Shown piece after piece: positions 563 to 21,459 of a stretch of DNA of 22,196 bases. The position numbers and the translations under genes are program-made. Position 1 is the stretch's first letter; every line of letters starts with the position of its first letter. The notes under the pieces were generated by a model, which was not told the origin of the DNA, did no database searches, and saw only the letters and a program-made list of their open reading frames with translations. This DNA comes from a virus, in the IMG/VR virus record IMGVR_UViG_3300026549_000035, positions 160,918 through 183,113 of that record; one strand, written 5' to 3'.

Positions 563-1597
563 TTATTTATTTTCATTTTTTCTTGCTTTTGCGCAATCAG
601 AACAATAAATTTCGTTTGATCGTTCTATTTCAAAAGGCTCTCCGCAATTTTCGCACCAGTTTACATTAAAGGATACACAATCAACACAATAATATTTCTT
701 TTCTCCAGTTTTTGTTTTTACAAGAAAAACATCATCTTCGGTAAAACTTCTTCCGCATTTAGAGCATTTATAAGGACCTGTTGAATAAACTGGGTATTTA
801 TCATAATCATAAAGATAATCATCTTCATCAGGAGATCCCCAACCCCAATATTTAGACATTCTTGACCAATAGTGTTCATAAGAAGAAGGAATGTATTTAA
901 AAGAAGGAGATGTATTAATATCATCAATCATTTTTTTAACTTTATTAATTGTTGTATATAAAGCGTTTGTATATAAAGTTTCTATTTTTTGATGTTCATT
1001 AAAATATCCTACTGATAAATTAACTCCTGCAATTTTCCATTGAGGGCAAATATAACTAATATCAGAGAAAGAACCCCATTCAGTTAAAAATCCATACCCT
1101 TCGACAAAGTTTTGAAAATCTTCATTATCACATTCATAAAAAACACAATCAGATAAACCTTGTCGGTCTAATTCTACTATATATTTTATTTCAAAGGGGG
1201 CAGAAGGAATTGATTTTATTAATGCTCTTGCTCCTAATCCGCCCATTTCTTCATCTGTGGTAAAACAAATATGCGGACGATATCCACTTTGAATTATTTT
1301 CATAATAGCAAATACACCCGCCCTATCATCAGCTCCTAATCCTTGAGGAGACCATAATACACATTGTTTTTGATCATAAAAAATTTGTTGAGGAAAATGT
1401 GTAAACACAGTATCCATATGAGCAACAAGCATAATAGGAGCAGTTCCTTCACAAAGTAAATAATCTTTAGTTGAAATAATTTTATCTTGAGAATAATGTT
1501 TTTTTAAATAATTCTTTAAAGATTTTTGTAAAGAATTTTGCTTCATTTGTGCAATAGCAGTAAAAAGTTGATAATCAGCATTATTCATTTCGATCAT
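563..1597 (-). CDS. M42/M28-like zinc aminopeptidase-family protein with a C-terminal double zinc-ribbon tail
   Basis: 344-aa ORF ending in TAA. Motifs HMDTV, GADDRAGV and TDEEMGGLGA resemble the metal-binding motifs of M42/M20 peptidases. The C-terminus carries CSKCG, CVDC, CENCG and CSDC. The class I promoter lies immediately upstream. Confidence 0.6.
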   Translation of the reverse strand: MIEMNNADYQLFTAIAQMKQNSLQKSLKNYLKKHYSQDKIISTKDYLLCEGTAPIMLVAHMDTVFTHFPQQIFYDQKQCVLWSPQGLGADDRAGVFAIMKIIQSGYRPHICFTTDEEMGGLGARALIKSIPSAPFEIKYIVELDRQGLSDCVFYECDNEDFQNFVEGYGFLTEWGSFSDISYICPQWKIAGVNLSVGYFNEHQKIETLYTNALYTTINKVKKMIDDINTSPSFKYIPSSYEHYWSRMSKYWGWGSPDEDDYLYDYDKYPVYSTGPYKCSKCGRSFTEDDVFLVKTKTGEKKYYCVDCVSFNVNWCENCGEPFEIERSNEIYCSDCAKARKNENK

Positions 1598-1649: not shown

Positions 1650-1777
1650 AAAAATCAAGTAAGGCTTTCTGCTGTATTTTCGTTTATTGTTTTTTGTTTT
1701 TCAGCATAAGACTATAATTGATTAATAAAATTAATTGTTGAATTACAAAAATTACAATTTGAAATGCCTTGACATTT

Positions 1778-2491
1778 CTATCCACAAGTCATTCGTCTAT
1801 GCGCAAAAAACTTTTTATCATCATTTTCATAAGGAATAACTTCAAATCCTCTATTATCTACATCTACTCCAAAATTAGTTAATAAAGTATTTAAATTACC
1901 TGGCCAATTTTTATCTTCAGCATAGATTCGATATAGAGCATATTCTTTTTTAATACTATCTTTTGAATCAAACTCGAAATGATCAATATAAGCACTATAA
2001 GTTTCAATGTCTTCTGGACGAATATATGTTCCACAAATTCCATTTTCACGAGGCATATATCCATTATAACATTTATTTACTACTGCGCGCAATTCAATAT
2101 CTGGACCACAGATATTTTTTACTTTTGATAAATCAAAGAAAATTGGAGCATCTAAAAGTATTTCATTAACGCCAAGCGCAATTAAACTTCGTAACTCCCA
2201 AAAAGTTGCAGCTGGATAAGACCAAAAAGCTTTATATCCTAAATCTTTGGCTGTTTCAATCATACGAGTATCTTCGACTGCAATAACAATATTTAAAATG
2301 TCTTTATATTTCTCTATTTGATCCCAATTAACAATTTGATCTTTTGGAAGATAAATAACTATCTCACCTTTGCAAGTCCAATCATCAGAAACAAAATCAG
2401 CCAATCTTTCAATATCATTATAATTTACTCGAATTTCTTCTGCTTTTTTTAAAACTGTTAAAGGCTATCTACTTGATAACATAAATTTCAA
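1778..2491 (-). CDS. hypothetical protein. The likely true start is TTG 2491..2489 with an AAAGGAGTG SD 7 nt upstream, and there is an in-frame TAG at 2467..2465. The track ORF 1778..2404 is the part after that TAG.
   Basis: The frame is open from TTG 2491 through the TAG to 1778. The track start TTG 2404 has no SD, whereas the 2491 start has a strong one. The terminal codon at 1780..1778 is also TAG and is followed by TAA 12 codons later. Confidence 0.5.
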
Positions 2492-4962: not shown

Positions 4963-5505
4963 TTAGTTAATCATGAATAAGTATAAAAACATTTGACAAC
5001 GACCAGAAGTTTTATTGTTAAATACTATATCTGTCGCTTGTTCTTCTGTTATCCACATAGGGTATATATCTTCATCTTTAGTTGTATTTTTATTAGTTAT
5101 CTCACCTGCAGCAGTGCAAACGACTGTTGCAACAGCTTCATTAGACATTCCCGCAGACTGATAAGCAGGAGGTAAAATATCTAAAATATCTTGTATTTCT
5201 AATCCTGTCTCTTCAAACAGTTCTCTTTTTGCAGTAGTTATAATATCTTCGTTATGTTCACGTAATCCCGCAGGAAAAGCGTAAATATAATCATTAACAG
5301 GAACTCGCCACTCTTTAATAACAAGAACTTTCTTAAAATCAGGAGATAAGGCAATAATGTCTACAGCATCAGCTCCTACCTTATTTATATCTTTAAGTTT
5401 TTGACGAGAAGCTACTTCATAATTACGTCCACTTTCTAATTTAAAATTATAAAAATGTAAAAATTTTCCATCATAAACAGGAACAATTTCTTTTATTTTA
5501 TCCAT
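4963..5505 (-). CDS. Nudix hydrolase (ADP-ribose/NDP-sugar pyrophosphatase-like)
   Basis: The Nudix box GLREHNEDIITTAKRELFEETGL matches Gx5Ex7REUxEExGU. The ORF is 180 aa ending in TAA, with an AAGAGGT SD 8 nt before ATG 5505. Confidence 0.8.
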   Translation of the reverse strand: MDKIKEIVPVYDGKFLHFYNFKLESGRNYEVASRQKLKDINKVGADAVDIIALSPDFKKVLVIKEWRVPVNDYIYAFPAGLREHNEDIITTAKRELFEETGLEIQDILDILPPAYQSAGMSNEAVATVVCTAAGEITNKNTTKDEDIYPMWITEEQATDIVFNNKTSGRCQMFLYLFMIN

Positions 5506-7710: not shown

Positions 7711-8274
7711 TTAAAAAACTTTCCAAATATCAATGCAGTTTACATTCATTACTTCAATAGCTGCTTGATGATTTTCAGGCGATGTGCCAGCGCAAAGATT
7801 ATCATACACGATGATACGAGTATTAGGGCAAGCCGCACGCAAAATTAGCGCATTAGAAATGACGCAAATATCGGTACAAAGACCTACTATAATAATCTTA
7901 TTTACTTCGTCCCTTTTAACACTCTCAATTAAATATTTTGCAAGGTCAAAGCTACCAAAGGTTTTTTTAGTCCACCAAATTACTACGGTTCCTTGTCGCA
8001 ATTTTTCTACAAGAGCTCTTTCTATAGAACTCTCAATTTCAAAACCTTCTGTAGCAGGAACGCAATGAATAGGAATATTCTTTCCTTCGATACTTTTATG
8101 ATAATCCTCTTCAAAGTGTTGATCTTGAGTAGCAAAAATATAGTCACCTTCAAAGTTTTTAATATATTCACATACCAAAGGAACTATCGCTTCTGCTTCT
8201 GGCGAACCCAAAACGCCATCAATAAAATCATTTTGCATATCTACAACTACTAACGCTGTTTTATTTTTTTCCAT
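7711..8274 (-). CDS. nicotinamidase/pyrazinamidase (PncA-like), isochorismatase-family cysteine hydrolase
   Basis: ALVVVDMQNDF (the DxQxDF motif), IPIHCV (the PncA WPxHCV-like metal site), the catalytic-Cys context IIIVGLCTDICV, and a conserved K (KKTFGSFD). The ORF ends in TAA. Confidence 0.7.
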   Translation of the reverse strand: MEKNKTALVVVDMQNDFIDGVLGSPEAEAIVPLVCEYIKNFEGDYIFATQDQHFEEDYHKSIEGKNIPIHCVPATEGFEIESSIERALVEKLRQGTVVIWWTKKTFGSFDLAKYLIESVKRDEVNKIIIVGLCTDICVISNALILRAACPNTRIIVYDNLCAGTSPENHQAAIEVMNVNCIDIWKVF

Positions 8275-8741: not shown

Positions 8742-9338
8742 ATGAGTGTATTAGCTGGAATTATGATAGGAATTGGCTGTATGTTGTATTTATAGATTGG
8801 CGGAATCCCAGGAGCTTGTTTATTTTCAGTTGGATTAATGTCAGTTTGTTTATTCAATATGAAATTATTTACGGGTCAGGCGGGAAAACTTGCAACATTA
8901 GAAATAAAACCCTTAAGCCTTTTAAAAATTTGGATTGGAAATTTTATAGGAATTTTTCTTGTTGCGCTAGTAGCCTTGGTGCATCCAAATTATGAAACTA
9001 TGGCGGAAGCCGCAAGAAATATAATGGCTTCTCGAGAAGCTGCAGGCTTTTTTTATTCTTTCGTATTAGGAATCCCTTGCGGTTTATTAATGTATTGTGC
9101 AGTCACCGCAAGAGGTCCGATGCGATTATTTTATATTATGATTTGCGTAGCAGCTTTTATTTTAGGCGGATTTTACCATTGTATTGCTGATTTATTTTAT
9201 ACTTGGTTAGGTGCTGGAAATATGCAATAGTTATGTAATGTTTTATTCGTAACTCTTGGAAATCTTGTAGGATGCAATCTTATCCCTTTAATAAAAATTA
9301 TTCCAAATAAAATTAAGAGGCTCAAAAAGAAAAAATGA
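8742..9338 (+). CDS. FNT-family-like membrane channel homolog, about 198 codons, with two in-frame TAG codons at 8793..8795 and 9228..9230
   Basis: ATG 8742 sits 7 nt after a perfect AAGGAGGTG SD. The frame is open to TGA 9336..9338 except for the two TAG codons. FNT-like segments lie on both sides of each TAG: FSVGLMSVCLFNMKLFTG (compare FocA FSLGLILCVVCGADLFTS), CVAAFILGGFYHCIADLF (compare GFEHSIANMF), and after the second TAG NVLFVTLGNLVGC (compare the FocA C-terminal VTLGNIIGG). Confidence 0.6.
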
Positions 9339-9344
9339 GCCTCT
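9315..9344. terminator. Hairpin between the convergent genes; a weak or bidirectional terminator
   Basis: AAGAGGCTC, a 12-nt A-rich loop, GAGCCTCTT. Confidence 0.4.
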
Positions 9345-9383
9345 TAACACTTGACGATTTGTAACGAAAAATATCGAGAATCG

Positions 9384-9662
9384 TCACGGATTATTTTGAT
9401 AAAATTCTTGTTCGATACGGGTATTTTCTTGTAAAATTCGAGCGTTTATACAATTCTGACAGTAGATATGCACAGTATCATCTTTGACTTCGATTATAGG
9501 AACCAATACCCCATTGCCGCATTTTTCGCAAACAGATATTTCTGTTACACATTTAGAGCAATAGTCTTCTGGATTAATTTTTCCCTGCATTGCAGGAATC
9601 ATAATCTAACAAGTTTTATTTTGAGGTAAATATAATTTGCATTTAGCGCATCGATAAAACAT
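9384..9662 (-). CDS. double zinc-ribbon protein, 92 codons. The true start is ATG 9662 and there is an in-frame TAG at 9608..9606. The track ORF 9384..9602 is only the part after the TAG.
   Basis: Minus strand reads TAAGGGGGTAAAAG ATG TTT TAT CGA TGC GCT AAA TGC ... TGT TAG ATT ATG ATT. The AAGGGGGT SD is 5 nt before the ATG. The N-terminal extension supplies a CAKC pair that complements CSKC, CEKC and CQNC. The track start at 9602 has no SD. Confidence 0.65.
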
Positions 9663-9673
9663 CTTTTACCCCC

Positions 9674-10186
9674 TTATTCAAGATTGACTGAAAATGAATA
9701 ATCTATACTTCCTTCTGGGATATGAATTTCTTGTTCTTGTCTATCTGTAATAAAAAAGAAATTAATAATAGGGTTAGAATTTCTCATTTGCTTTGTTTCG
9801 ATGTAAGCAGTTTCTTTCTTTTCGTCATCATAAAGAGTTGTTTTTTCTGCTTTTACACTATAAAAATCTTTTCCTCCGTCTTTATTTTCAGTAAAATAGT
9901 AATAATATAAATCTGAATCTATATATCCACTACCAATAAAGAAATATCCTGTTGAAAGATTATTATTATCTTTTAAAGCAACAATAGATTCTTTTTTAGT
10001 ATCATAAACTTCATCGGCTTCAAATTCTTGACCTATTAAAAAGGAACCCATTAATATAAAGAGAGTTACTGCAATTGATATTAGGACTCCTGTAAAAATA
10101 TCAGAAGCATATCCTAAATCAGCAAAAATTGCGTAAAGAATACTGCCAATAATAATTAAGATACCTATAATAAAAGCAAACCACAT
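9674..10186 (-). CDS. membrane protein with 2 N-terminal TM helices and an extracytoplasmic domain; tandem paralog of 10201..10719
   Basis: Hydrophobic N-terminus MWFAFIIGILIIIGSILYAIF...VLISIAVTLFILMGSFLIG. Ends in TAA. Confidence 0.6.
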   Translation of the reverse strand: MWFAFIIGILIIIGSILYAIFADLGYASDIFTGVLISIAVTLFILMGSFLIGQEFEADEVYDTKKESIVALKDNNNLSTGYFFIGSGYIDSDLYYYYFTENKDGGKDFYSVKAEKTTLYDDEKKETAYIETKQMRNSNPIINFFFITDRQEQEIHIPEGSIDYSFSVNLE

Positions 10187-11921: not shown

Positions 11922-12272
11922 TTATCCTTTTTTTTGACAAAGTTCAAAATATGTATCTCCAATTTTTTGTGGTGTTGATTTATACTGACAGTTATGTTCA
12001 TAATCAAGGCAAATATAAGCATTTTTATTATTAGAGCCTTTTATAATACCACATTCCATACAAGTAGACTTTTTATCCTAGTTATCCCAAGAAGAAGTCC
12101 ATTCTTCAACAAGTTCTTTTAAAAGTTCTTGTTCTAATTCAGTTAAACAATAAAAGGGAACCTGTGCCCAAACTTCCTTGTTTTTATTTTCAGATACATT
12201 TTTTTCTATACTATAACAATCATAATTATCATTAAATAAGAGTCTATATTGACCTAAAGTAATAACTTTCAT
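11922..12272 (-). CDS. hypothetical protein. The 64-aa ORF ends at TAG 12080..12078, and the frame stays open for 51 more Cys-containing codons to TAA 11924..11922.
   Basis: The extension reads IKKSTCMECGIIKGSNNKNAYICLDYEHNCQYKSTPQKIGDTYFELCQKKG, which is protein-like and fills the whole intergenic gap up to the next gene's RBS. An alternative is a separate mini-ORF from ATG 12059 with a poor RBS. Confidence 0.45.
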
Positions 12273-13251: not shown

Positions 13252-13288
13252 TATTTTATTTTTCCTTTTTATTATTTTTTCTATATAT

Positions 13289-13317
13289 ATTATAATATAT
13301 TTTTATTAAAAAATCAA
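13289..13317 (-). promoter_or_regulatory. Class I promoter, copy 6; divergent from the plus-strand promoter of the RHH operon
   Basis: Minus strand reads TTGATT (13317..13312), a 17-nt spacer, then TATAAT (13294..13289). Confidence 0.7.
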
Positions 13318-13345
13318 TTGAGAATTTTTTTGTTAAAAAATTTTT

Positions 13346-13373
13346 TTACATTGTAGGACAAAGTTATATAAAT
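13346..13373 (+). promoter_or_regulatory. Candidate plus-strand promoter (TTTACA-16-TATAAA) for the RHH-led operon
   Basis: tttacattgtaggacaaagttatataaa. It contains the half-operator-like TTACATTGTAG. Confidence 0.35.
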
Positions 13374-13418
13374 TATTACAAAGTATTTTTATATATACAT
13401 GAAAGGAAGTGAAAGAAA

Positions 13419-13550
13419 TTGACTACTATTTCAGTTAGAATTGATGACACAGAAAAAAAGAAATTAGAAGAATTTGCCAGAAAAGAAGATTTAACTATGT
13501 CACAAATTATTCGTAAAGCTTTAAAAGAGTATTTAAAAAATAATACATAA
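13419..13550 (+). CDS. ribbon-helix-helix (CopG/Arc/MetJ-like) DNA-binding protein, 43 aa, TTG start
   Basis: The translation TTISVRIDDTEKKKLEEFARKEDLTMSQIIRKALKEYLKNNT has an N-terminal beta-strand followed by two helices. An AAAGGAAG SD is 9 nt before the TTG. It is absent from the ORF track because it is short and uses a TTG start. Confidence 0.55.
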   Translation: MTTISVRIDDTEKKKLEEFARKEDLTMSQIIRKALKEYLKNNT

Positions 13551-13567
13551 GGAGGCTCATAAGCAAA

Positions 13568-13747
13568 ATGCCAATTAACAAAATAATTTATTCAAAAAGA
13601 GTAATGGAGTCTTTAGTTGCTATGGGTAATATACCTCTTAAATCTATGCCTAATCCTTATAAGCCAGAGTTTTAGTGTTGGATTTTTGAAGTTAATGAAA
13701 AATTTTAGAAAGATATAGATAAAATATTAGGTGATAAATATGGTTGA
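13568..13747 (+). CDS. small protein. ATG 13568 sits after a TAAGGAGG SD, 35 codons run to TAG 13673..13675, the frame continues through a second TAG at 13706..13708 to TGA 13745..13747, and it overlaps the next start.
   Basis: MPINKIIYSKRVMESLVAMGNIPLKSMPNPYKPEF then TAG, CWIFEVNEKF then TAG, KDIDKILGDKYG then stop. The read-through text is protein-like and ends in an ATGnnTGA-style overlap with the downstream gene. Confidence 0.4.
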
Positions 13748-14111
13748 GCGCACTTTTATATTTTATCCTGATTGGCTTAATTTTATTGAACGTATTAGTA
13801 ATGAAAAAGATAAATTAGATTTATATGATATTATTGCTTCTTATGGGTGTCATGGAGAATATTCAAATAAAAATCCTATGATGACTGCTGTTTTTGAATC
13901 TTTAATTAAACCTAAAATAGATATTGCGCAAGGTCGTTATGAAGAAAAAATTACTATGGGAAAGAATTATGGACGTAAAAAAATAGTAGATGATAATATG
14001 GTCAAGTAGTTGGCGCAAGAAGGCATGCGCGCAAAAGATATTGCTGAGAAATTAAACGTGTCGGTTGATACGGTTTATCATAGTGATGGATGGAAAAATA
14101 GAAATTTGTAA
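13740..14111 (+). CDS. two-domain DNA-binding protein. An 89-aa N-terminal domain ends at an in-frame TAG (14007..14009) and is followed by a 33-codon sigma70-region-4-like HTH. It is possibly an ArpU/RinA-like regulator or an initiator-like protein.
   Basis: ATG 13740 sits after a TAGGTGAT SD. The frame after the TAG is contiguous and reads LAQEGMRAKDIAEKLNVSVDTVYHSDGWKNRNL, a classic HTH. The internal ATG 14025 is only 1 nt after its AAGAAGG and cannot initiate well. Confidence 0.5.
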
Positions 14112-15696: not shown

Positions 15697-16131
15697 TTAT
15701 CTAACCATTCGATTAAGGAAATCCTCAATAGGGTCGACTGCATGAACTGCACCAGCCTTTTGGCTCTTATTTTTCAATGCTTCGAGCTCCTGGCTTAGCT
15801 CAATATACTTAGTGAGAAAAGGAAGAGATTCATCGATAACTTTAACGATCTCTTCTGGATCAGCCTCTTCGATAGCATCAAGAATCTCATCATCAACCTC
15901 ATAAACTGCCAAAAGATCTTCAAATGCAAAGAGAACTGCTTCTACAGCCGCTATCTTCTGGGCAAAAAGATTATCCTGCTTTGCTTTTGCTTCAGCTTCT
16001 GCTTTTTTGGCAGCTTCCGCAGCCTTATGCTTCTCATTTGCTTCGTTCAAGCTCTTGGTAAGTGATGCAGCAATATCTTCCGCCGACTCACCATTCTGTA
16101 GACGCTCAAGAATCTCATTTGTATAATCCAT
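15697..16131 (-). CDS. acidic Ala/Glu/Lys-rich protein, 144 aa; paralog of 2660..3058
   Basis: GC-richer than its surroundings. Class I promoter copy 7 is immediately upstream and a strong terminator lies downstream. Ends in TAA. Confidence 0.65.
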   Translation of the reverse strand: MDYTNEILERLQNGESAEDIAASLTKSLNEANEKHKAAEAAKKAEAEAKAKQDNLFAQKIAAVEAVLFAFEDLLAVYEVDDEILDAIEEADPEEIVKVIDESLPFLTKYIELSQELEALKNKSQKAGAVHAVDPIEDFLNRMVR

Positions 16132-16166
16132 TTATAAAAACCTCTTTTCTTTTATTTTCTATATAT

Positions 16167-16195
16167 ATTATATCAAAAATTTTTATAAAAATCAA
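16167..16195 (-). promoter_or_regulatory. Class I promoter, copy 7
   Basis: Minus strand reads TTGATT (16195..16190), a 17-nt spacer, then TATAAT (16172..16167). Confidence 0.7.
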
Positions 16196-16199
16196 ATTT

Positions 16200-16705
16200 A
16201 GGCTCGTAAAGCCACGAAAATTTTTCTGTGGAAAGAAATTCATGAGAACTTCCTTTTGGATAGCTGGGCTGATAAAAATCAGCCTTTGTAAATACGCCAT
16301 AGCAAAGATGAGAACTATGCGTTTTTCCCCGAACGGACATCCGAACGGGAATGGACAGGAACGAAAGAGCTGCGGAAAATTTTTGGTTTTTTTTAATATT
16401 ATACCAAAAAATTTTTTGAAAGTCAAACAAGTAATTATAAAAACAAACACCGAGCGGGGCCGGCAAGTAACTTTCAAATGAGATAAAAGCCATATGGGGC
16501 AAACACCGAACGGGGGCCCGCCCGGGGGGGCAGAGTGGTAAAAAAAAATTTCCCATTTCGGGAAAATGAGATGCCATATGGGGGGCCGCACTTGCCCTCG
16601 AAAAATTTGCATATGGGGTTAGGTGCGGGAATTCGGGCGACGTCTATTGTCGTCGGCCCGATGATTTTATCGCTTTAAGCCACTAAAGTGCCCGGGCGCA
16701 AACCC
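16200..16705. other. GC-rich non-coding island with reiterated CACCGAACGGGG and CATATGGGG motifs and several hairpins. The overlapping track ORFs here are judged spurious.
   Basis: caccgagcgggg at 16448, caccgaacgggg at 16504, ccccgaacgg and ccgaacggg near 16326..16347. catatgggg appears three times near 16491, 16575 and 16610. A bulged hairpin GGGCGACG...CGTCGGCCC is also present. Confidence 0.6.
16538..16568 (-). terminator. Rho-independent terminator for the minus-strand class II unit arrays
   Basis: Minus strand reads ATTTTCCCGAAATGGGAAAT followed by TTTTTTTTT. Confidence 0.7.
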
Positions 16706-18332: not shown

Positions 18333-18590
18333 TTAGTAATCAACACTAATGTAACACGCTTCACCACGAGTCATACCATTTTCAAGTAAAACTTCTGCAA
18401 CATAACGCTCAGGTTTATTTAATTCCTCAAAATCTTTTTCATCTTTAGGAATCCAAAAATAAATTGCGCCACTTTGTGGAGGGCAGTATGATTCGTTAAA
18501 TTCTCCTTCTACATCTTCACCATATTTTTTTTGAATAAGGGTAAAAACTTCACTGGAATCATACACTTTATACATTTTGAACTGAAACAT
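18333..18590 (-). CDS. hypothetical protein, 85 aa
   Basis: Class II promoter and operator upstream. Ends in TAA. Confidence 0.55.
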   Translation of the reverse strand: MFQFKMYKVYDSSEVFTLIQKKYGEDVEGEFNESYCPPQSGAIYFWIPKDEKDFEELNKPERYVAEVLLENGMTRGEACYISVDY

Positions 18591-18620
18591 TTTTTTATCT
18601 CCTTTTCTTTTGATGTATTA

Positions 18621-18669
18621 AGTATAACACAGTCAGAAGAAAAAGTCAATAGCTATTACAATTTTGTAA
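18621..18669 (-). promoter_or_regulatory. Class II promoter (TTGACT-17-TATACT) with the operator TTACAATTTTGTAA (18656..18669) and the GCGCCCGGGCGC box (18684..18695)
   Basis: agtcaa at 18644..18649 and agtata at 18621..18626. Confidence 0.65.
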
Positions 18670-18695
18670 CTTTTTTTTTATTGCGCCCGGGCGCT

Positions 18696-18800
18696 CGGAG
18701 GCGTTTACACTCGCTATCCGAGGCACTACTCAGGAACGTGGTAGGAGCACGTCACTCTTTTCATGTCCTACCCTCGAATAGCAACTGTAAACGCCCCCAG
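18696..18800. ncRNA. A ~105-nt GC-rich long imperfect hairpin (about 30 bp paired in three stem segments) inserted between a gene-end hairpin and a promoter box. It is a candidate structured RNA or protein-binding palindrome of unknown class.
   Basis: Outer stem GGCGTTTACA/TGTAAACGCC, middle stem GCTATCCGAGG/CCTCGAATAGC with one wobble pair, inner stem GGTAGGA/TCCTACC. A 17-nt asymmetric loop contains ACGTG. It fails a tRNA cloverleaf test. Confidence 0.35.
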
Positions 18801-19212: not shown

Positions 19213-19290
19213 AGTATCAATCCTTTCAGCGTTGGTCGCCACCCAAATTTTTATTGTCAAGGGAGGTTTTCCTTCCCTTTGACTGTCTTT

Positions 19291-19345
19291 ATTATATCAC
19301 ATAGAGAGGAAAAAGTCAAGGGGGTTTTCAAATTTTTTTGAAAAT
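19291..19345 (-). promoter_or_regulatory. Class II-type promoter (TTGACT-17-TATAAT) with a different upstream palindrome, TTTTCAAA-N4-TTTGAAAA (19326..19345), and a structured leader
   Basis: agtcaa at 19314..19319 and attata at 19291..19296. The leader hairpin GTCAAAGGGAAGG-AAAA-CCTCCCTTGAC is at 19256..19286. Confidence 0.55.
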
Positions 19346-19896: not shown

Positions 19897-20337
19897 TCAA
19901 GCCGCAAGAAGCGACTTGAGGGTTTCAATCATTTCATCAGCAGGACAAGCACGACCTGTCCATGCTTCAAGGTGTCGAACTTCATCATCAAACAGAATAT
20001 CCTCGCCAGAATTTACATCATTTTTTGTAAACCAGTAAGGAACAAAACGAATCTCATCAAAACGAACGCTTTTAAGGTGACGATTAAGCCACATTTTTTT
20101 TGCCTTGATTACTGCTTCATCATATTCTGCGGAGCTGTTCTTTGACAAAGCGGTAACAATGCAAATTTCAAAACCGTTGCGCTGAACTCTATTCATCAGC
20201 CGAGCCAGAAGCGAAAGATTTACAAGGGGTTTTGCTTCTGCGTAGGGGGTAGGGTCAGAATTGATTAACTTTTCAAGCCAATCATTAACCCCATAAAGGT
20301 CAGCAATAGTGCCGTCCATGTCAAACCAAATTCTCAT
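19897..20337 (-). CDS. HAD-superfamily 5'(3')-deoxyribonucleotidase (NT5C/YorS-like)
   Basis: The N-terminal HAD motif I WFDMDGTIADL (DxDGT) and the overall 146-aa size and pattern match phage and Bacillus 5'-nucleotidases. Ends in TGA. Confidence 0.6.
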   Translation of the reverse strand: MRIWFDMDGTIADLYGVNDWLEKLINSDPTPYAEAKPLVNLSLLARLMNRVQRNGFEICIVTALSKNSSAEYDEAVIKAKKMWLNRHLKSVRFDEIRFVPYWFTKNDVNSGEDILFDDEVRHLEAWTGRACPADEMIETLKSLLAA

Positions 20338-20807: not shown

Positions 20808-20834
20808 GCCAGACCTCCCCCATTAAAAGGGGAG
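20808..20834 (-). other. Perfect 9-bp hairpin GACCTCCCC-ATTAAAA-GGGGAGGTC overlapping the stop of the HD gene
   Basis: gacctcccccattaaaaggggaggtc. Confidence 0.6.
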
Positions 20835-21433
20835 GTCGCTGTCGTCAAGGATAAAATCCTCGGGGTGAGCGTCAATCTCATACTCTGCGGTAAGAGTAGG
20901 AATATCCCAAAATGACCTTGAAGCAATATAATCAGACAAGTGAACAAGGCGGTCAACAGGGGTGAAAGGTCTATCTTCTTTCGGCTCAGTCCATTGACCC
21001 ATGTGTGACTTAATCGCCAGTAAAAGCACTTCGGGAGCTTCTTCATTGAAAAATTCCTGCCATGCTTCTTTAACAGCATTTGAAGCGTGCAAACCGTGTT
21101 GCTTGAAGCAATTTTTATCTTCTTCTAAACCGCCGTATTTATAAGTGTCGTGAAGAATACAAGCGACTTTTGCATAATCTTTGTATTCATCTCTCATATA
21201 CGCATAAGTATTCATGCGTAAAAGTTCTTCACATACCATCACAACGGCTCTTGTATGACGAATTAAACCGCCCTCGCCCTGAGCGAATACAGGGTGATAT
21301 TTACCAGAAGAAGAAGCCCCAGACTTTTTAAACCATTCCCCAACACGAGTGTCAAGAAAAAATCGAGTGAAGTCTTTCAAATCTTCGCTTTGGATAAGCT
21401 GGATTTCACGCTCAAAAAATTTACTTAACTGCA
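20823..21433 (-). CDS. HD-domain metal-dependent phosphohydrolase, about 203 aa from ATG 21433
   Basis: H..H (GKYHP...IRHTRAV), HD (ACILHDTYKYG), H (HGLHASN) and D (LVHLSDY) motifs. An AAAGGA SD is 10 nt before ATG 21433. The track start at 21533 would run through the promoter and operator, so it is rejected. Confidence 0.6.
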
Positions 21434-21459
21434 TTTGTATCAAATCCTTTCTCTCTTTG

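What the first reader, a model, noticed from the sequence alone, without database searches (positions are those of the whole stretch)
9384..9662. The zinc-ribbon gene's real start lies upstream of an in-frame TAG, and its strong RBS overlaps the upstream stop
The ORF-track start ATG 9602 has no SD. Eighteen codons upstream of an in-frame TAG (9608..9606) there is ATG 9662, 5 nt after AAGGGGGT. The extension MFYRCAKCKLYLPQNKTC supplies a CxxC pair that completes a 4+4 Cys arrangement with CSKC, CEKC and CQNC. This is a compact, sequence-only demonstration that TAG is translated.
Basis: seen in the sequence. Interest (0 to 1): 0.75.

Follow-up and report, generated by a model that had tools for sequence, protein, structure and literature searches.

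The report
Amber codon read as glutamine
A small cysteine-rich phage gene really does start 20 codons upstream of its annotated start and reads through an in-frame TAG, because this large uncultivated phage uses TAG as a glutamine codon. That kind of recoding is already known in phages, so the case is a clean example rather than a new phenomenon.

Summary
On the minus strand, ATG 9662 lies 5 nt after AAGGGGGT, which overlaps the upstream TAA (9676..9674). An in-frame TAG sits at 9608..9606, Met21 at 9602, and TGA at 9386..9384.

- **Relatives:** four contigs carry CAA (Gln) exactly where the window and one other contig carry TAG. The 18 upstream codons are conserved, mostly through synonymous changes.
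- **Family:** 21 distant small homologues all begin with the same N-terminal CxxC, and Gln is the commonest residue at the TAG column.
- **Other genes:** TAG is sense elsewhere in the window, with 12 in-frame TAGs in 8 of 38 genes and no gene ending in TAG. Homology to a solved formate/nitrite-transporter-family channel and to Pfam HTH_7 runs straight across TAGs.
- **Context:** the source is a phage of at least 177 kb with a large tRNA array. A CUA-anticodon tRNA was found only in a relative about 70-76% identical.

This is TAG-to-Gln recoding (genetic code 15), a known kind. That site resembles a high-potential iron-sulfur protein (HiPIP) core rather than a zinc ribbon, but the signal is below family thresholds.

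The parts
9384..9662 (-). Full coding sequence: 92 codons plus TGA, with TAG at codon 19 read as sense (most likely Gln).
   Evidence: The public call on ENA contig k141_7166 gives 92 aa with Q19.
9668..9675 (-). Shine-Dalgarno sequence AAGGGGGT, 5 nt before the ATG. It overlaps the last two bases of the upstream TAA (9676..9674).
   Evidence: Columns 25-32 (TAAGGGGG) are invariant in six contigs and the last base varies T/C. Most genes in the window carry GGAGG-like motifs at 5-11 nt.
9660..9662 (-). True start codon ATG.
9609..9659 (-). Codons 2-18 of the N-terminal extension. They carry C5, C8 and C18, three of the four invariant cysteines of the first metal site.
   Evidence: The AF2 model gives pLDDT 84-89 for residues 1-30.
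9606..9608 (-). In-frame TAG (codon 19), directly after invariant Cys18. Relatives L003 to L006 have CAA here and L007 has TAG. Gln is the commonest residue at this column in the family (11 of 22).
9600..9602 (-). Internal ATG (Met21). It is the annotated 72-aa start, has no Shine-Dalgarno sequence, and lies inside the first metal-binding module.
9303..9354 (-). Strong hairpin followed by a U-rich run, downstream of the gene. It is a probable terminator shared with the convergent FNT-like gene.
   Evidence: -21.6 kcal/mol, z = -5.5, and 0 of 200 shuffles fold as well.
8742..9338 (+). Convergent neighbour: a 198-aa formate/nitrite-transporter-like protein with in-frame TAGs at 8793..8795 and 9228..9230. 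It gives independent proof that TAG is sense in this genome.
   Evidence: The phmmer alignment to PDB 3TDP spans residues 2-180 across both TAGs. Both TAGs are conserved in L003 to L007, and L007 has a third TAG where the window has CAG.
581..772 (-). Paralogous four-CxxC module fused to the C-terminus of the M28/M20-like peptidase gene (563..1597).
   Evidence: BLASTP of P0001 residues 3-75 against peptidase residues 276-339 gives E = 1e-4 with all four CxxC pairs aligned. Phage homologues of the peptidase cover only residues 10-240.
13740..14111 (+). DUF6291 + HTH_7 gene with TAG at 14007..14009 (codon 90). The Pfam HTH_7 match (residues 78-113) spans the TAG.
1655..2482 (-). 275-aa gene with three in-frame TAGs (2465..2467, 1778..1780, 1712..1714). 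One lies inside a C-G-TAG-K-C cysteine motif.
11922..12272 (-). 116-aa gene with an in-frame TAG at 12078..12080.

Best explanation
The window comes from a large uncultivated phage of at least 177 kb with low GC content. Its distant relatives infect Bacillota. In this phage TAG is a sense codon, most likely glutamine (genetic code 15 type recoding).

The gene at 9384..9662 is translated from ATG 9662, which is coupled to the upstream gene through an AAGGGGGT Shine-Dalgarno sequence overlapping that gene's TAA. The ribosome reads TAG 9608..9606 as residue 19 and stops at TGA, giving a 92-residue protein.

That protein has two four-cysteine metal sites. The first uses C5, C8, C18 and C35, and the second uses C45, C48, C68 and C71 and is followed by a long helix. 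The annotated 72-residue product would lack three of the four ligands of the first site.

Decoding of TAG is inferred to depend on a phage-encoded amber suppressor tRNA (anticodon CUA) from the phage's large tRNA array, charged by the host glutaminyl-tRNA synthetase, as proposed for other code-15 phages.

**Shown here:** the sequence anatomy; TAG/CAA interchange among orthologues; coding-type conservation across the TAG; homology running across TAGs in several other genes; and no gene ending in TAG.

**Inferred:** the suppressor tRNA in this particular genome, Gln as the inserted residue, and the identity of the bound metal.
For: **This gene**
- A six-contig DNA alignment shows TAG in the window and L007, and CAA in L003 to L006, at the same codon.
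- Codons 1-18 have 8 variable codons, 5 of them purely synonymous. All cysteines are invariant.
- The family alignment of 22 homologues plus the window's peptidase module shows every small homologue starting just before the first CxxC. Q occupies the TAG column in 11 of 22.
- Homologue P0017 has a natural CAA there, with its ATG overlapping the upstream TGA.
- The AF2 model built on the 23-sequence alignment has mean pLDDT 88.6 and is confident across residues 1-40.
- The paralogous module aligns in register.

**Genome-wide**
- 12 in-frame TAGs occur in 8 of 38 genes. Stop codons are TAA 29, TGA 9, TAG 0. Gln codon counts are CAA 95, CAG 33, TAG 12.
- The alignment of the FNT-like gene to PDB 3TDP crosses two TAGs, and the Pfam HTH_7 match crosses a TAG.
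- In 5392 compared codon pairs, four sites interchange TAG with another codon: CAA (this gene), CAG twice, and CGT once.
- In the 484-aa protein the 21 residues after a TAG remain conserved in the relative.

**Phage context and decoding machinery**
- PHROG and phage matches.
- 13 tRNAs lie within 7.5 kb just beyond the window on the same contig. Relatives carry 17-33 tRNAs per locus.
- A 71-nt class-I tRNA with a CUA anticodon sits in the syntenic array of relative L074. Rfam scores it 41.9 bits as tRNA.

**Literature**
- TAG-to-Gln recoding with suppressor tRNAs is established in gut phages (10.1101/2021.08.26.457843; PMC10607447).
- It has been confirmed by proteomics in crAss-like phages (PMC9523058).
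Against: - No CUA-anticodon tRNA and no tRNA-Gln was found in the window or in the part of the window's own contig I could reach.
- The suppressor tRNA was seen only in a relative that shares about 70-76% nucleotide identity in common genes.
- That tRNA resembles no other tRNA of the array closely (at most 68% identity). It lacks the G2:C71 and G3:C70 pairs typical of bacterial tRNA-Gln, so its charging identity is open.
- One TAG aligns with CGT (Arg) in a relative.
- The 'no gene ends in TAG' count rests on gene calls that treated TAG as sense, so it is partly circular.
- There is no protein-level evidence.
Confidence: 0.88

Rival explanations
1. TAG is read through, but as an amino acid other than glutamine. 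The suppressor could be charged with another residue, or the codon could be decoded ambiguously.
For: - The CUA tRNA in relative L074 has C2:G71 and C3:G70 instead of the tRNA-Gln pattern, and it is not derived from the array's tRNA-Gln(UUG).
- One TAG/CGT interchange was seen.
- The TAG column of the family also tolerates M, R, H, A, T and P.
- Unrelated large phages fetched in passing carry roughly 90-nt CUA tRNAs with a long variable arm.
Against: - Three of the four sites where TAG interchanges with another codon involve CAA or CAG, and CAG is one transition away from TAG.
- Q is the clear plurality at the family column (11 of 22), and natural CAA is confirmed in L075.
- The L074 tRNA has G73, an unpaired 1:72 position, G10 and U35, all compatible with recognition by GlnRS (the identity rules come from my own knowledge of E. 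coli tRNA-Gln).
- The literature reports only TAG-to-Gln in phages whose code differs from their host's.
Confidence: 0.07
2. TAG is a genuine stop. The locus would then encode an 18-residue upstream peptide, plus a 72-residue protein made by termination-reinitiation at ATG 9602, which lies 3 nt after the TAG.
For: - The arrangement TAG-ATT-ATG is compatible with reinitiation.
- Met21 is conserved.
- Standard-code gene calls list a 72-aa product in JGI/IMG and Logan.
Against: - Relatives have CAA, giving one continuous frame with the same Shine-Dalgarno sequence and ATG.
- Every distant homologue is a single ORF that starts at the first CxxC.
- A 72-aa product would lose three of the four invariant ligands (C5, C8, C18).
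- ATG 9602 has no Shine-Dalgarno sequence.
- TAG is demonstrably read in neighbouring genes of the same genome and in all relatives.
Confidence: 0.03
3. The gene is a recent pseudogene (a nonsense mutation of CAG/CAA), or the TAG is an assembly or sequencing error.
For: Only two of the six aligned contigs carry TAG, and the others have CAA.
Against: - L007 carries the same TAG while differing from the window at 26 codons, and the downstream frame is still intact. Synonymous and non-synonymous codon differences are 12:12 for codons 20-92 and 2:0 for codons 1-18.
- The ENA contig k141_7166, 99.99% identical to the window, gives the same read-through product.
- Seven other genes in the window also carry in-frame TAGs, with homology continuing across several of them.
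Confidence: 0.01

Closest known systems
Genetic code 15 (TAG to Gln) recoded phages: crAss-like, Lak, the Garnet and Sapphire clades, and the Phassvirus group (phAss-1)
   Same: - In-frame TAGs occur in a minority of genes (8 of 38 here; clade means of 26% to 71% reported, 28% in phAss-1).
- TAG aligns with Gln in homologues.
- The genome is low in GC and carries many tRNA genes.
- Relatives carry an amber suppressor tRNA.
- Related strains differ in which orthologues carry TAG, as reported for phAss-1.
   Different: - No close relative exists in the INPHARED or IMG/VR collections.
- The nearest cultured matches are standard-code Enterococcus phages of about 140 kb (EF1-like), at 23-39% protein identity.
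- The TAG-bearing genes in this window are small accessory genes rather than the structural and lysis genes emphasised in the literature.
- A suppressor tRNA has not been shown in this genome itself.
High-potential iron-sulfur proteins (HiPIP, Pfam PF01355), C-terminal cluster-binding core
   Same: - The spacing and context of the four invariant cysteines match: C-x2-C-x-L-Y ... C-Q-[IL] ... G-K-I-x-P-x-D-Y-C-x-x-[H/Y/F].
- With the N-half profile (A5), HiPIPs are the only PDB sequences hit at E <= 1: 3H31 at 1.5e-4 and 1HLQ at 0.025.
- hhalign pairs C5, C8, C18 and C35 with C43, C46, C63 and C77 of the C. vinosum HiPIP, and Q19 with Q64.
   Different: - Pfam HIPIP scores stay below the gathering cutoff (16.1 against 22 bits).
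- The module is only about 40 residues. It lacks the N-terminal half of a HiPIP and any export signal.
- It is fused to a second four-Cys finger and a helix, and it is phage-encoded.
- Metal content is unknown: a [4Fe-4S] cluster and Zn are both possible.
Double zinc ribbon, LIM and treble-clef zinc fingers (Pfam Zn_ribbon_6 PF07191, DZR_2, LIM; ZAD domains)
   Same: - Two consecutive four-ligand sites with CxxC knuckles.
- For the C-terminal half, the second CxxC sits at the start of a helix.
- There are weak LIM and zinc-ribbon sequence hits.
   Different: - No Pfam zinc-finger family reaches its cutoff (Zn_ribbon_6 scores 16.4-16.9 against 25 bits).
- The first site's ligand pattern (C-x2-C-x9-C-x16-C) is not a ribbon pattern.

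Membership tests
Code-15 type (TAG to Gln) recoded phage | In-frame TAG codons inside conserved protein-coding genes, with homology continuing on both sides. | tested here: met
   - Cysteine-rich gene.
- FNT-like gene against PDB 3TDP, across two TAGs.
- HTH_7 match across a TAG.
- 484-aa protein tail conserved after a TAG.
Code-15 type (TAG to Gln) recoded phage | TAG positions align preferentially with Gln in homologues. | tested here: met
   - Of four sites where TAG interchanges with another codon, one is CAA, two are CAG and one is CGT.
- Q occupies the family column in 11 of 22 sequences.
- Natural CAA is present in L075.
- The sample of events is small.
Code-15 type (TAG to Gln) recoded phage | TAG is not used as a terminator; TAA and TGA terminate. 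| tested here: met
   Of 38 genes, 29 end in TAA, 9 in TGA and none in TAG. Every standard-code ORF ending in TAG continues in frame to TAA or TGA. The count is partly circular because the gene calls assumed TAG is sense.
Code-15 type (TAG to Gln) recoded phage | Phage-encoded amber suppressor tRNA (anticodon CUA). | tested here: inconclusive
   - None in the window or in about 7.5 kb of the contig's own tRNA array.
- None in the 17-19 tRNAs of each closer relative.
- Present in the syntenic array of a 70-76% identical relative, L074 19228-19298.
- The literature finds such tRNAs in only about 40% of TAG-recoded genomes.
Code-15 type (TAG to Gln) recoded phage | The sequence is a phage genome. 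| tested here: met
   - PHROG hits.
- The best matches, with a nearby gene pair preserved, are in Enterococcus phages of about 140 kb.
- tRNA arrays contain HNH and GIY-YIG homing endonucleases.
- The contig is 177.5 kb.
Code-15 type (TAG to Gln) recoded phage | Protein-level proof that Gln is inserted at TAG. | not testable with these tools
   This needs metaproteomics, as in PMC9523058.
Zinc ribbon (Pfam Zn_ribbon_6 PF07191 / double zinc ribbon) | Score at or above the Pfam gathering cutoff. | tested here: not met
   16.4-16.9 bits against a cutoff of 25. No zinc-finger family is shared by more than 2 of 23 members.
HiPIP (Pfam PF01355) | Score at or above the Pfam gathering cutoff. | tested here: not met
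   The best member scores 16.1 bits (E = 0.014) against a cutoff of 22. A second member reaches E = 0.11.
HiPIP (Pfam PF01355) | Four cluster-ligating cysteines in the C-x2-C ... C ... C arrangement, with an aromatic residue three positions after the last Cys. | tested here: met
   C5, C8, C18 and C35 are invariant in 20 of 20 N-terminal halves. Position 38 is H, Y, F or C. They align with the HiPIP cysteines.
HiPIP (Pfam PF01355) | HiPIP fold. | tested here: inconclusive
HiPIP (Pfam PF01355) | Binds a [4Fe-4S] cluster. | not testable with these tools
   This needs expression followed by UV-visible and EPR spectroscopy or metal analysis.

The most novel reading that the evidence does not exclude
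The gene may belong to an undescribed family of small phage proteins. Its N-terminal 40 residues would be a minimal HiPIP-like four-Cys (possibly [4Fe-4S]) module, fused to a treble-clef zinc finger and a helix. The same module also occurs fused to a phage peptidase, and as up to 17 matched stretches in giant proteins.

In this strain the TAG sits right after the third ligand. The complete two-site protein could then be made only once the phage's amber suppressor is active. Before that, translation would yield at most an 18-residue peptide or a 72-residue single-site form. That would make the TAG a timing switch rather than a neutral synonymous Gln codon.
Probability: 0.12. Interest if true: 0.6.

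Novelty: new member of a known kind. Interest (0 to 1): 0.35.

Why it matters
**Annotation.** The same gene appears in public collections both as a truncated 72-aa product and as the full 92-aa protein, depending on the genetic code the gene caller assumed. The truncated form loses three of the four conserved ligands of its first metal site. Any window from this phage lineage should be read with TAG as sense.

**Biology.** The case adds a large phage lineage, whose nearest cultured matches infect Bacillota and which has no close relative in the phage collections searched, to the known set of TAG-to-Gln recoded phages. It also shows recoding in small accessory genes and in a membrane-channel gene.

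**Side lead.** A HiPIP-like four-cysteine mini-domain family in phages is the only potentially new item. It is cheap to test by expressing the protein and measuring its metal content.

Tried and rejected
**Searches for close relatives that found nothing**
- DNA and protein searches of the window or the gene against INPHARED phages: no match.
- IMG/VR scans with the cysteine-rich protein, the peptidase and a tRNA-Ser 33-mer: no relatives.

**Hunt for the amber suppressor tRNA in the window's own genome**
- I walked from the window into the contig's tRNA array.
- I then moved to closer relatives through two protein searches.
- This reached 13 to about 30 tRNAs, but none with a CUA anticodon.
- A single JGI scan found a CUA tRNA only in a more distant relative.
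- I could not reach the rest of the 177-183 kb genome within the look-up rules.

**Other dead ends**
- Pyrrolysine was rejected. The CUA tRNA has canonical D and T loops (GG and TTCGATT) and a 5-nt variable loop. No Pyl genes were seen, and TAG swaps with Gln codons.
- The first AF2 model, built on 6 sequences (pLDDT 73.9), and its Foldseek search gave nothing significant. It was replaced by a model built on 23 sequences.
- The origin of the CUA tRNA could not be identified by similarity to other tRNAs of the array.
- Rfam found no family in the window, nor in the odd 15.3-17.3 kb region.
- The simple terminator scan missed the hairpin at 9303..9354 because its loop is 11 nt. Folding shows it clearly.

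Full report
**1.

- The upstream gene 9674..10186 ends with TAA at 9676..9674.
- AAGGGGGT occupies 9675..9668, overlapping the last two bases of that stop.
- Five bases later comes ATG 9662..9660, followed by 18 sense codons (MFYRCAKCKLYLPQNKTC).
- Then come TAG 9608..9606, ATT and ATG 9602..9600, and the frame runs to TGA 9386..9384.

The 22 nt before ATG 9602 have no Shine-Dalgarno-like run. Most genes in the window have a GGAGG-like motif 5-11 nt upstream of the start.

With start 9662 the gap to the upstream gene is 11 nt. Six of the other eight gaps in the operon fall between -19 and +29 nt. With start 9602 the gap would be 71 nt.

A strict scan asked for an in-frame TAG, at least 70 open codons downstream, and an upstream in-frame ATG with a perfect GG[A/G]GG motif. 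It finds two cases in the window, this gene and its neighbour, and none in 100 Markov simulations.

**2. Orthologues settle the reading**

A protein search found a 92-aa homologue (P0001) and several 72-aa or shorter calls. I fetched the DNA of five related contigs and aligned it.
- The Shine-Dalgarno sequence, the ATG and the 18 upstream codons are present in all of them.
- At the TAG codon, the window and L007 have TAG. L003, L004, L005 and L006 have CAA (Gln).
- In the 18-codon extension, 8 codons vary: 5 are purely synonymous and 3 are conservative. Every cysteine is invariant.
- L007 keeps the TAG while differing from the window at 26 other codons, with the frame intact. A fresh nonsense mutation or a sequencing error is therefore excluded.
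- The 72-aa database entries from L004 to L006 are caller artefacts, because their DNA is open upstream and has CAA.

**3. Distant homologues agree**

An exhaustive HMMER search with P0001 found 30 representatives at E < 1e-3.
- The 21 small ones I aligned (70-103 aa) all align from query residues 1-4. They start 3-9 residues before the same first CxxC.
- Gln is the commonest residue at the TAG column, in 11 of 22 sequences.
- For the 53%-identical P0017 I read the DNA. The codon is a natural CAA, and the gene's ATG overlaps the upstream gene's TGA behind a GAGGTGG motif.
- Inside the window, the C-terminal 64 residues of the 344-aa M28/M20-like peptidase (563..1597) form a paralogous module. 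It aligns to residues 3-75 with all four CxxC pairs in register (E = 1e-4).

**4. TAG is sense throughout this genome**

The window is 99.99% identical to part of ENA contig ERZ27252065 k141_7166, which is 177,555 bp long. The public gene call for that contig already reads through TAG.

Using those calls, 38 genes in the window end in TAA (29) or TGA (9), and none end in TAG. Twelve TAGs lie in frame in 8 genes, and the Gln codon counts are CAA 95, CAG 33 and TAG 12.

Three pieces of evidence do not depend on those gene calls:
- The convergent neighbour (8742..9338, +) is a formate/nitrite-transporter-like (FNT) protein. Its alignment to the solved channel 3TDP covers residues 2-180, across both of its TAGs.
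- Those two TAGs are conserved in all five relatives, including the relatives that have CAA in the cysteine-rich gene.
- The Pfam HTH_7 match in the DUF6291 gene spans its TAG.

A codon-by-codon comparison of 5392 orthologous codon pairs found four sites where TAG interchanges with another codon. One is CAA, two are CAG and one is CGT. At the CGT site the 21 residues after the TAG remain conserved.

**5. What the genome is**

There is no nucleotide match in INPHARED and no close relative in IMG/VR.
- The proteins hit PHROGs.
- The peptidase and the 565-aa protein have their best matches, about 3-4 kb apart as in the window, in Enterococcus phages of about 140 kb (EF1-like).
- The HD-domain protein matches Clostridium and Bacillus phages.
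- Just 1.7 kb beyond the window start, the contig carries a tRNA array with 13 tRNAs in 7.5 kb.
- Closer relatives carry 17-19 tRNAs per fetched locus, interspersed with HNH and GIY-YIG homing endonucleases. One of these has a TAG in its RWK-TAG-H motif.

The source is therefore a large, low-GC phage. Because its distant cultured matches all infect Bacillota, a Bacillota host is likely but untested.

**6. The decoding machinery**

I found no CUA-anticodon tRNA in the window or in the reachable part of its own array.

A JGI contig (L074) shares the syntenic array and about 70-76% nucleotide identity in common genes. It has 32 tRNAs, a tmRNA, a tRNA-Gln(UUG) and a 71-nt class-I tRNA with anticodon CUA at 19228-19298. 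Rfam scores that last one at 41.9 bits as tRNA.
- It has G73, an unpaired 1:72 position, G10 and U35. From my own knowledge of tRNA-Gln identity rules, these are compatible with GlnRS.
- It lacks the G2:C71 and G3:C70 pairs, and it is not visibly derived from any tRNA of the array.

A suppressor tRNA in this particular genome is therefore inferred, not shown. The literature detects such tRNAs in only about 40% of TAG-recoded phages.

**7. What the protein is**

'Zinc ribbon' is not established. No Pfam zinc family reaches its cutoff.

Family conservation gives eight conserved cysteines. C5, C8, C35, C45 and C48 are invariant across the full alignment, and C18, C68 and C71 are at least 90% conserved. 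In the 20 N-terminal halves, C5, C8, C18 and C35 are all invariant. The second Cys of the window's 'CSKC' (position 38) is H, Y, F, C or P across the family. By conservation, the first site is C5-C8-C18-C35, so three of its four ligands lie in the 18-codon extension. The TAG follows the third ligand directly.

A profile of the N-terminal halves hits only two PDB sequences at E <= 1. Both are high-potential iron-sulfur proteins (HiPIPs): 3H31 at 1.5e-4 and 1HLQ at 0.025. Both align over the core that holds the four cluster ligands. Three further signals point the same way:
- Pfam HIPIP is the top but sub-threshold hit for one member (16.1 against 22 bits).

**8. Comparison with what is known, and verdict**

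TAG-to-Gln recoding (code 15) in gut and other phages is well documented.
- It is linked to low GC content and suppressor tRNAs, and in-frame stops occur in only part of the genes (10.1101/2021.08.26.457843).
- It has been confirmed by proteomics in crAss-like phages (PMC9523058).
- It has been described in phages of about 136 kb with 28-36 tRNAs and strain-to-strain differences in which orthologues carry TAG (PMC10607447).

This locus is a clean new member of that kind. One public pipeline already outputs the 92-aa protein with Q19, while JGI/IMG and Logan list the 72-aa form.

The phenomenon is genome-wide and already known. The cysteine bookkeeping points to a C5/C8/C18/C35 site rather than CxxC plus CSKC.

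Interest is modest (0.35). The residual novelty is the possible HiPIP-like mini-domain family, together with the untested idea that the TAG gates production of the full protein on suppressor availability.

Noticed in passing
window 8742..9338 (+): A phage-encoded 198-aa formate/nitrite-transporter-like membrane protein, shorter than the 257-309-residue solved family members it matched. It has two in-frame TAGs (8793..8795, 9228..9230) conserved in all five related contigs. L007 has a third TAG where the window has CAG. TAGs conserved in a channel-like gene could mean its expression is gated by suppression.
   Followed up: partly
window 563..1597 (-), module at 581..772: An M28/M20-like peptidase carries a C-terminal four-CxxC module paralogous to the 92-aa protein. 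Homologous peptidases in Enterococcus, Lactococcus and other phages cover only residues 5-240, so the module is an add-on in this lineage.
   Followed up: partly
P0020 (2565 aa), P0029, P0036, P0043, P0044: The same cysteine module matches 5 to 17 separate stretches within giant proteins (854-2565 aa) from metagenomes.
   Followed up: no
window 1655..2482 (-): A 275-aa protein with no family match has three in-frame TAGs. One lies inside a C-G-TAG-K-C-x6-C-x2-C cysteine motif near the C-terminus.
   Followed up: no
L010 13282-20755 (same contig, starting about 1.7 kb beyond window position 1); L012, L013, L073, L074: Very large tRNA arrays (13 tRNAs reachable in the window's own contig, 17-32 per locus in relatives) are interspersed with HNH, GIY-YIG and PDDEXK genes. 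L074 also has a tmRNA (18419-18728) next to the CUA-anticodon tRNA.
   Followed up: partly
L013 7706-8335: A GIY-YIG homing endonuclease inside the tRNA array has an in-frame TAG in the conserved R-W-K-TAG-H segment. The next gene (from 8615) has two TAGs within three codons (I-N-TAG-V-TAG-A).
   Followed up: no
L014 11061-11151, L017 6715-6804, L030 14197-14286 (unrelated large IMG/VR phages): These are CUA-anticodon tRNAs of about 90 nt. In L014 the Rfam alignment shows a variable arm of about 20 nt, and the tRNA sits next to a tmRNA. A class-II-like amber suppressor could mean TAG is read as something other than Gln in those phages. L030 also has a UCA-anticodon tRNA.
   Followed up: partly
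window about 16148..16195 and 16100..16650: The ENA assembly breaks here. Contigs k141_7166 and k141_718151 match the window up to this point, overlap by 48 bp, and then each continues with about 460-480 bp of different sequence. The adjacent 0.5 kb has long overlapping ORFs in three frames, higher GC (39%) and no Rfam match. This could be a strain-variable insertion or a repeat.
   Followed up: partly
window about 13252..13567: Gene orientation switches here, from a minus-strand operon on the left to plus-strand genes on the right. GC skew flips from about -0.25 to +0.19 and then +0.41 across 12-15 kb, and GC content is at its lowest (24%). This could be a divergent promoter region or a replication-related boundary.
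   Followed up: no
window 4963..5505, 7711..8274, 19897..20337, 20823..21434 (all -): A set of nucleotide/NAD-type auxiliary genes: NUDIX hydrolase, isochorismatase/nicotinamidase-like, NT5C-like 5'-nucleotidase and an HD phosphohydrolase.
   Followed up: no
cluster of P0001: Public collections hold the same gene as both 72-aa (JGI/IMG, Logan) and 92-aa (ENA-derived call, Q at the TAG) products within one 31-member cluster. The 72-aa form sits on a 183,113-bp contig, which may be the window's source.
   Followed up: yes
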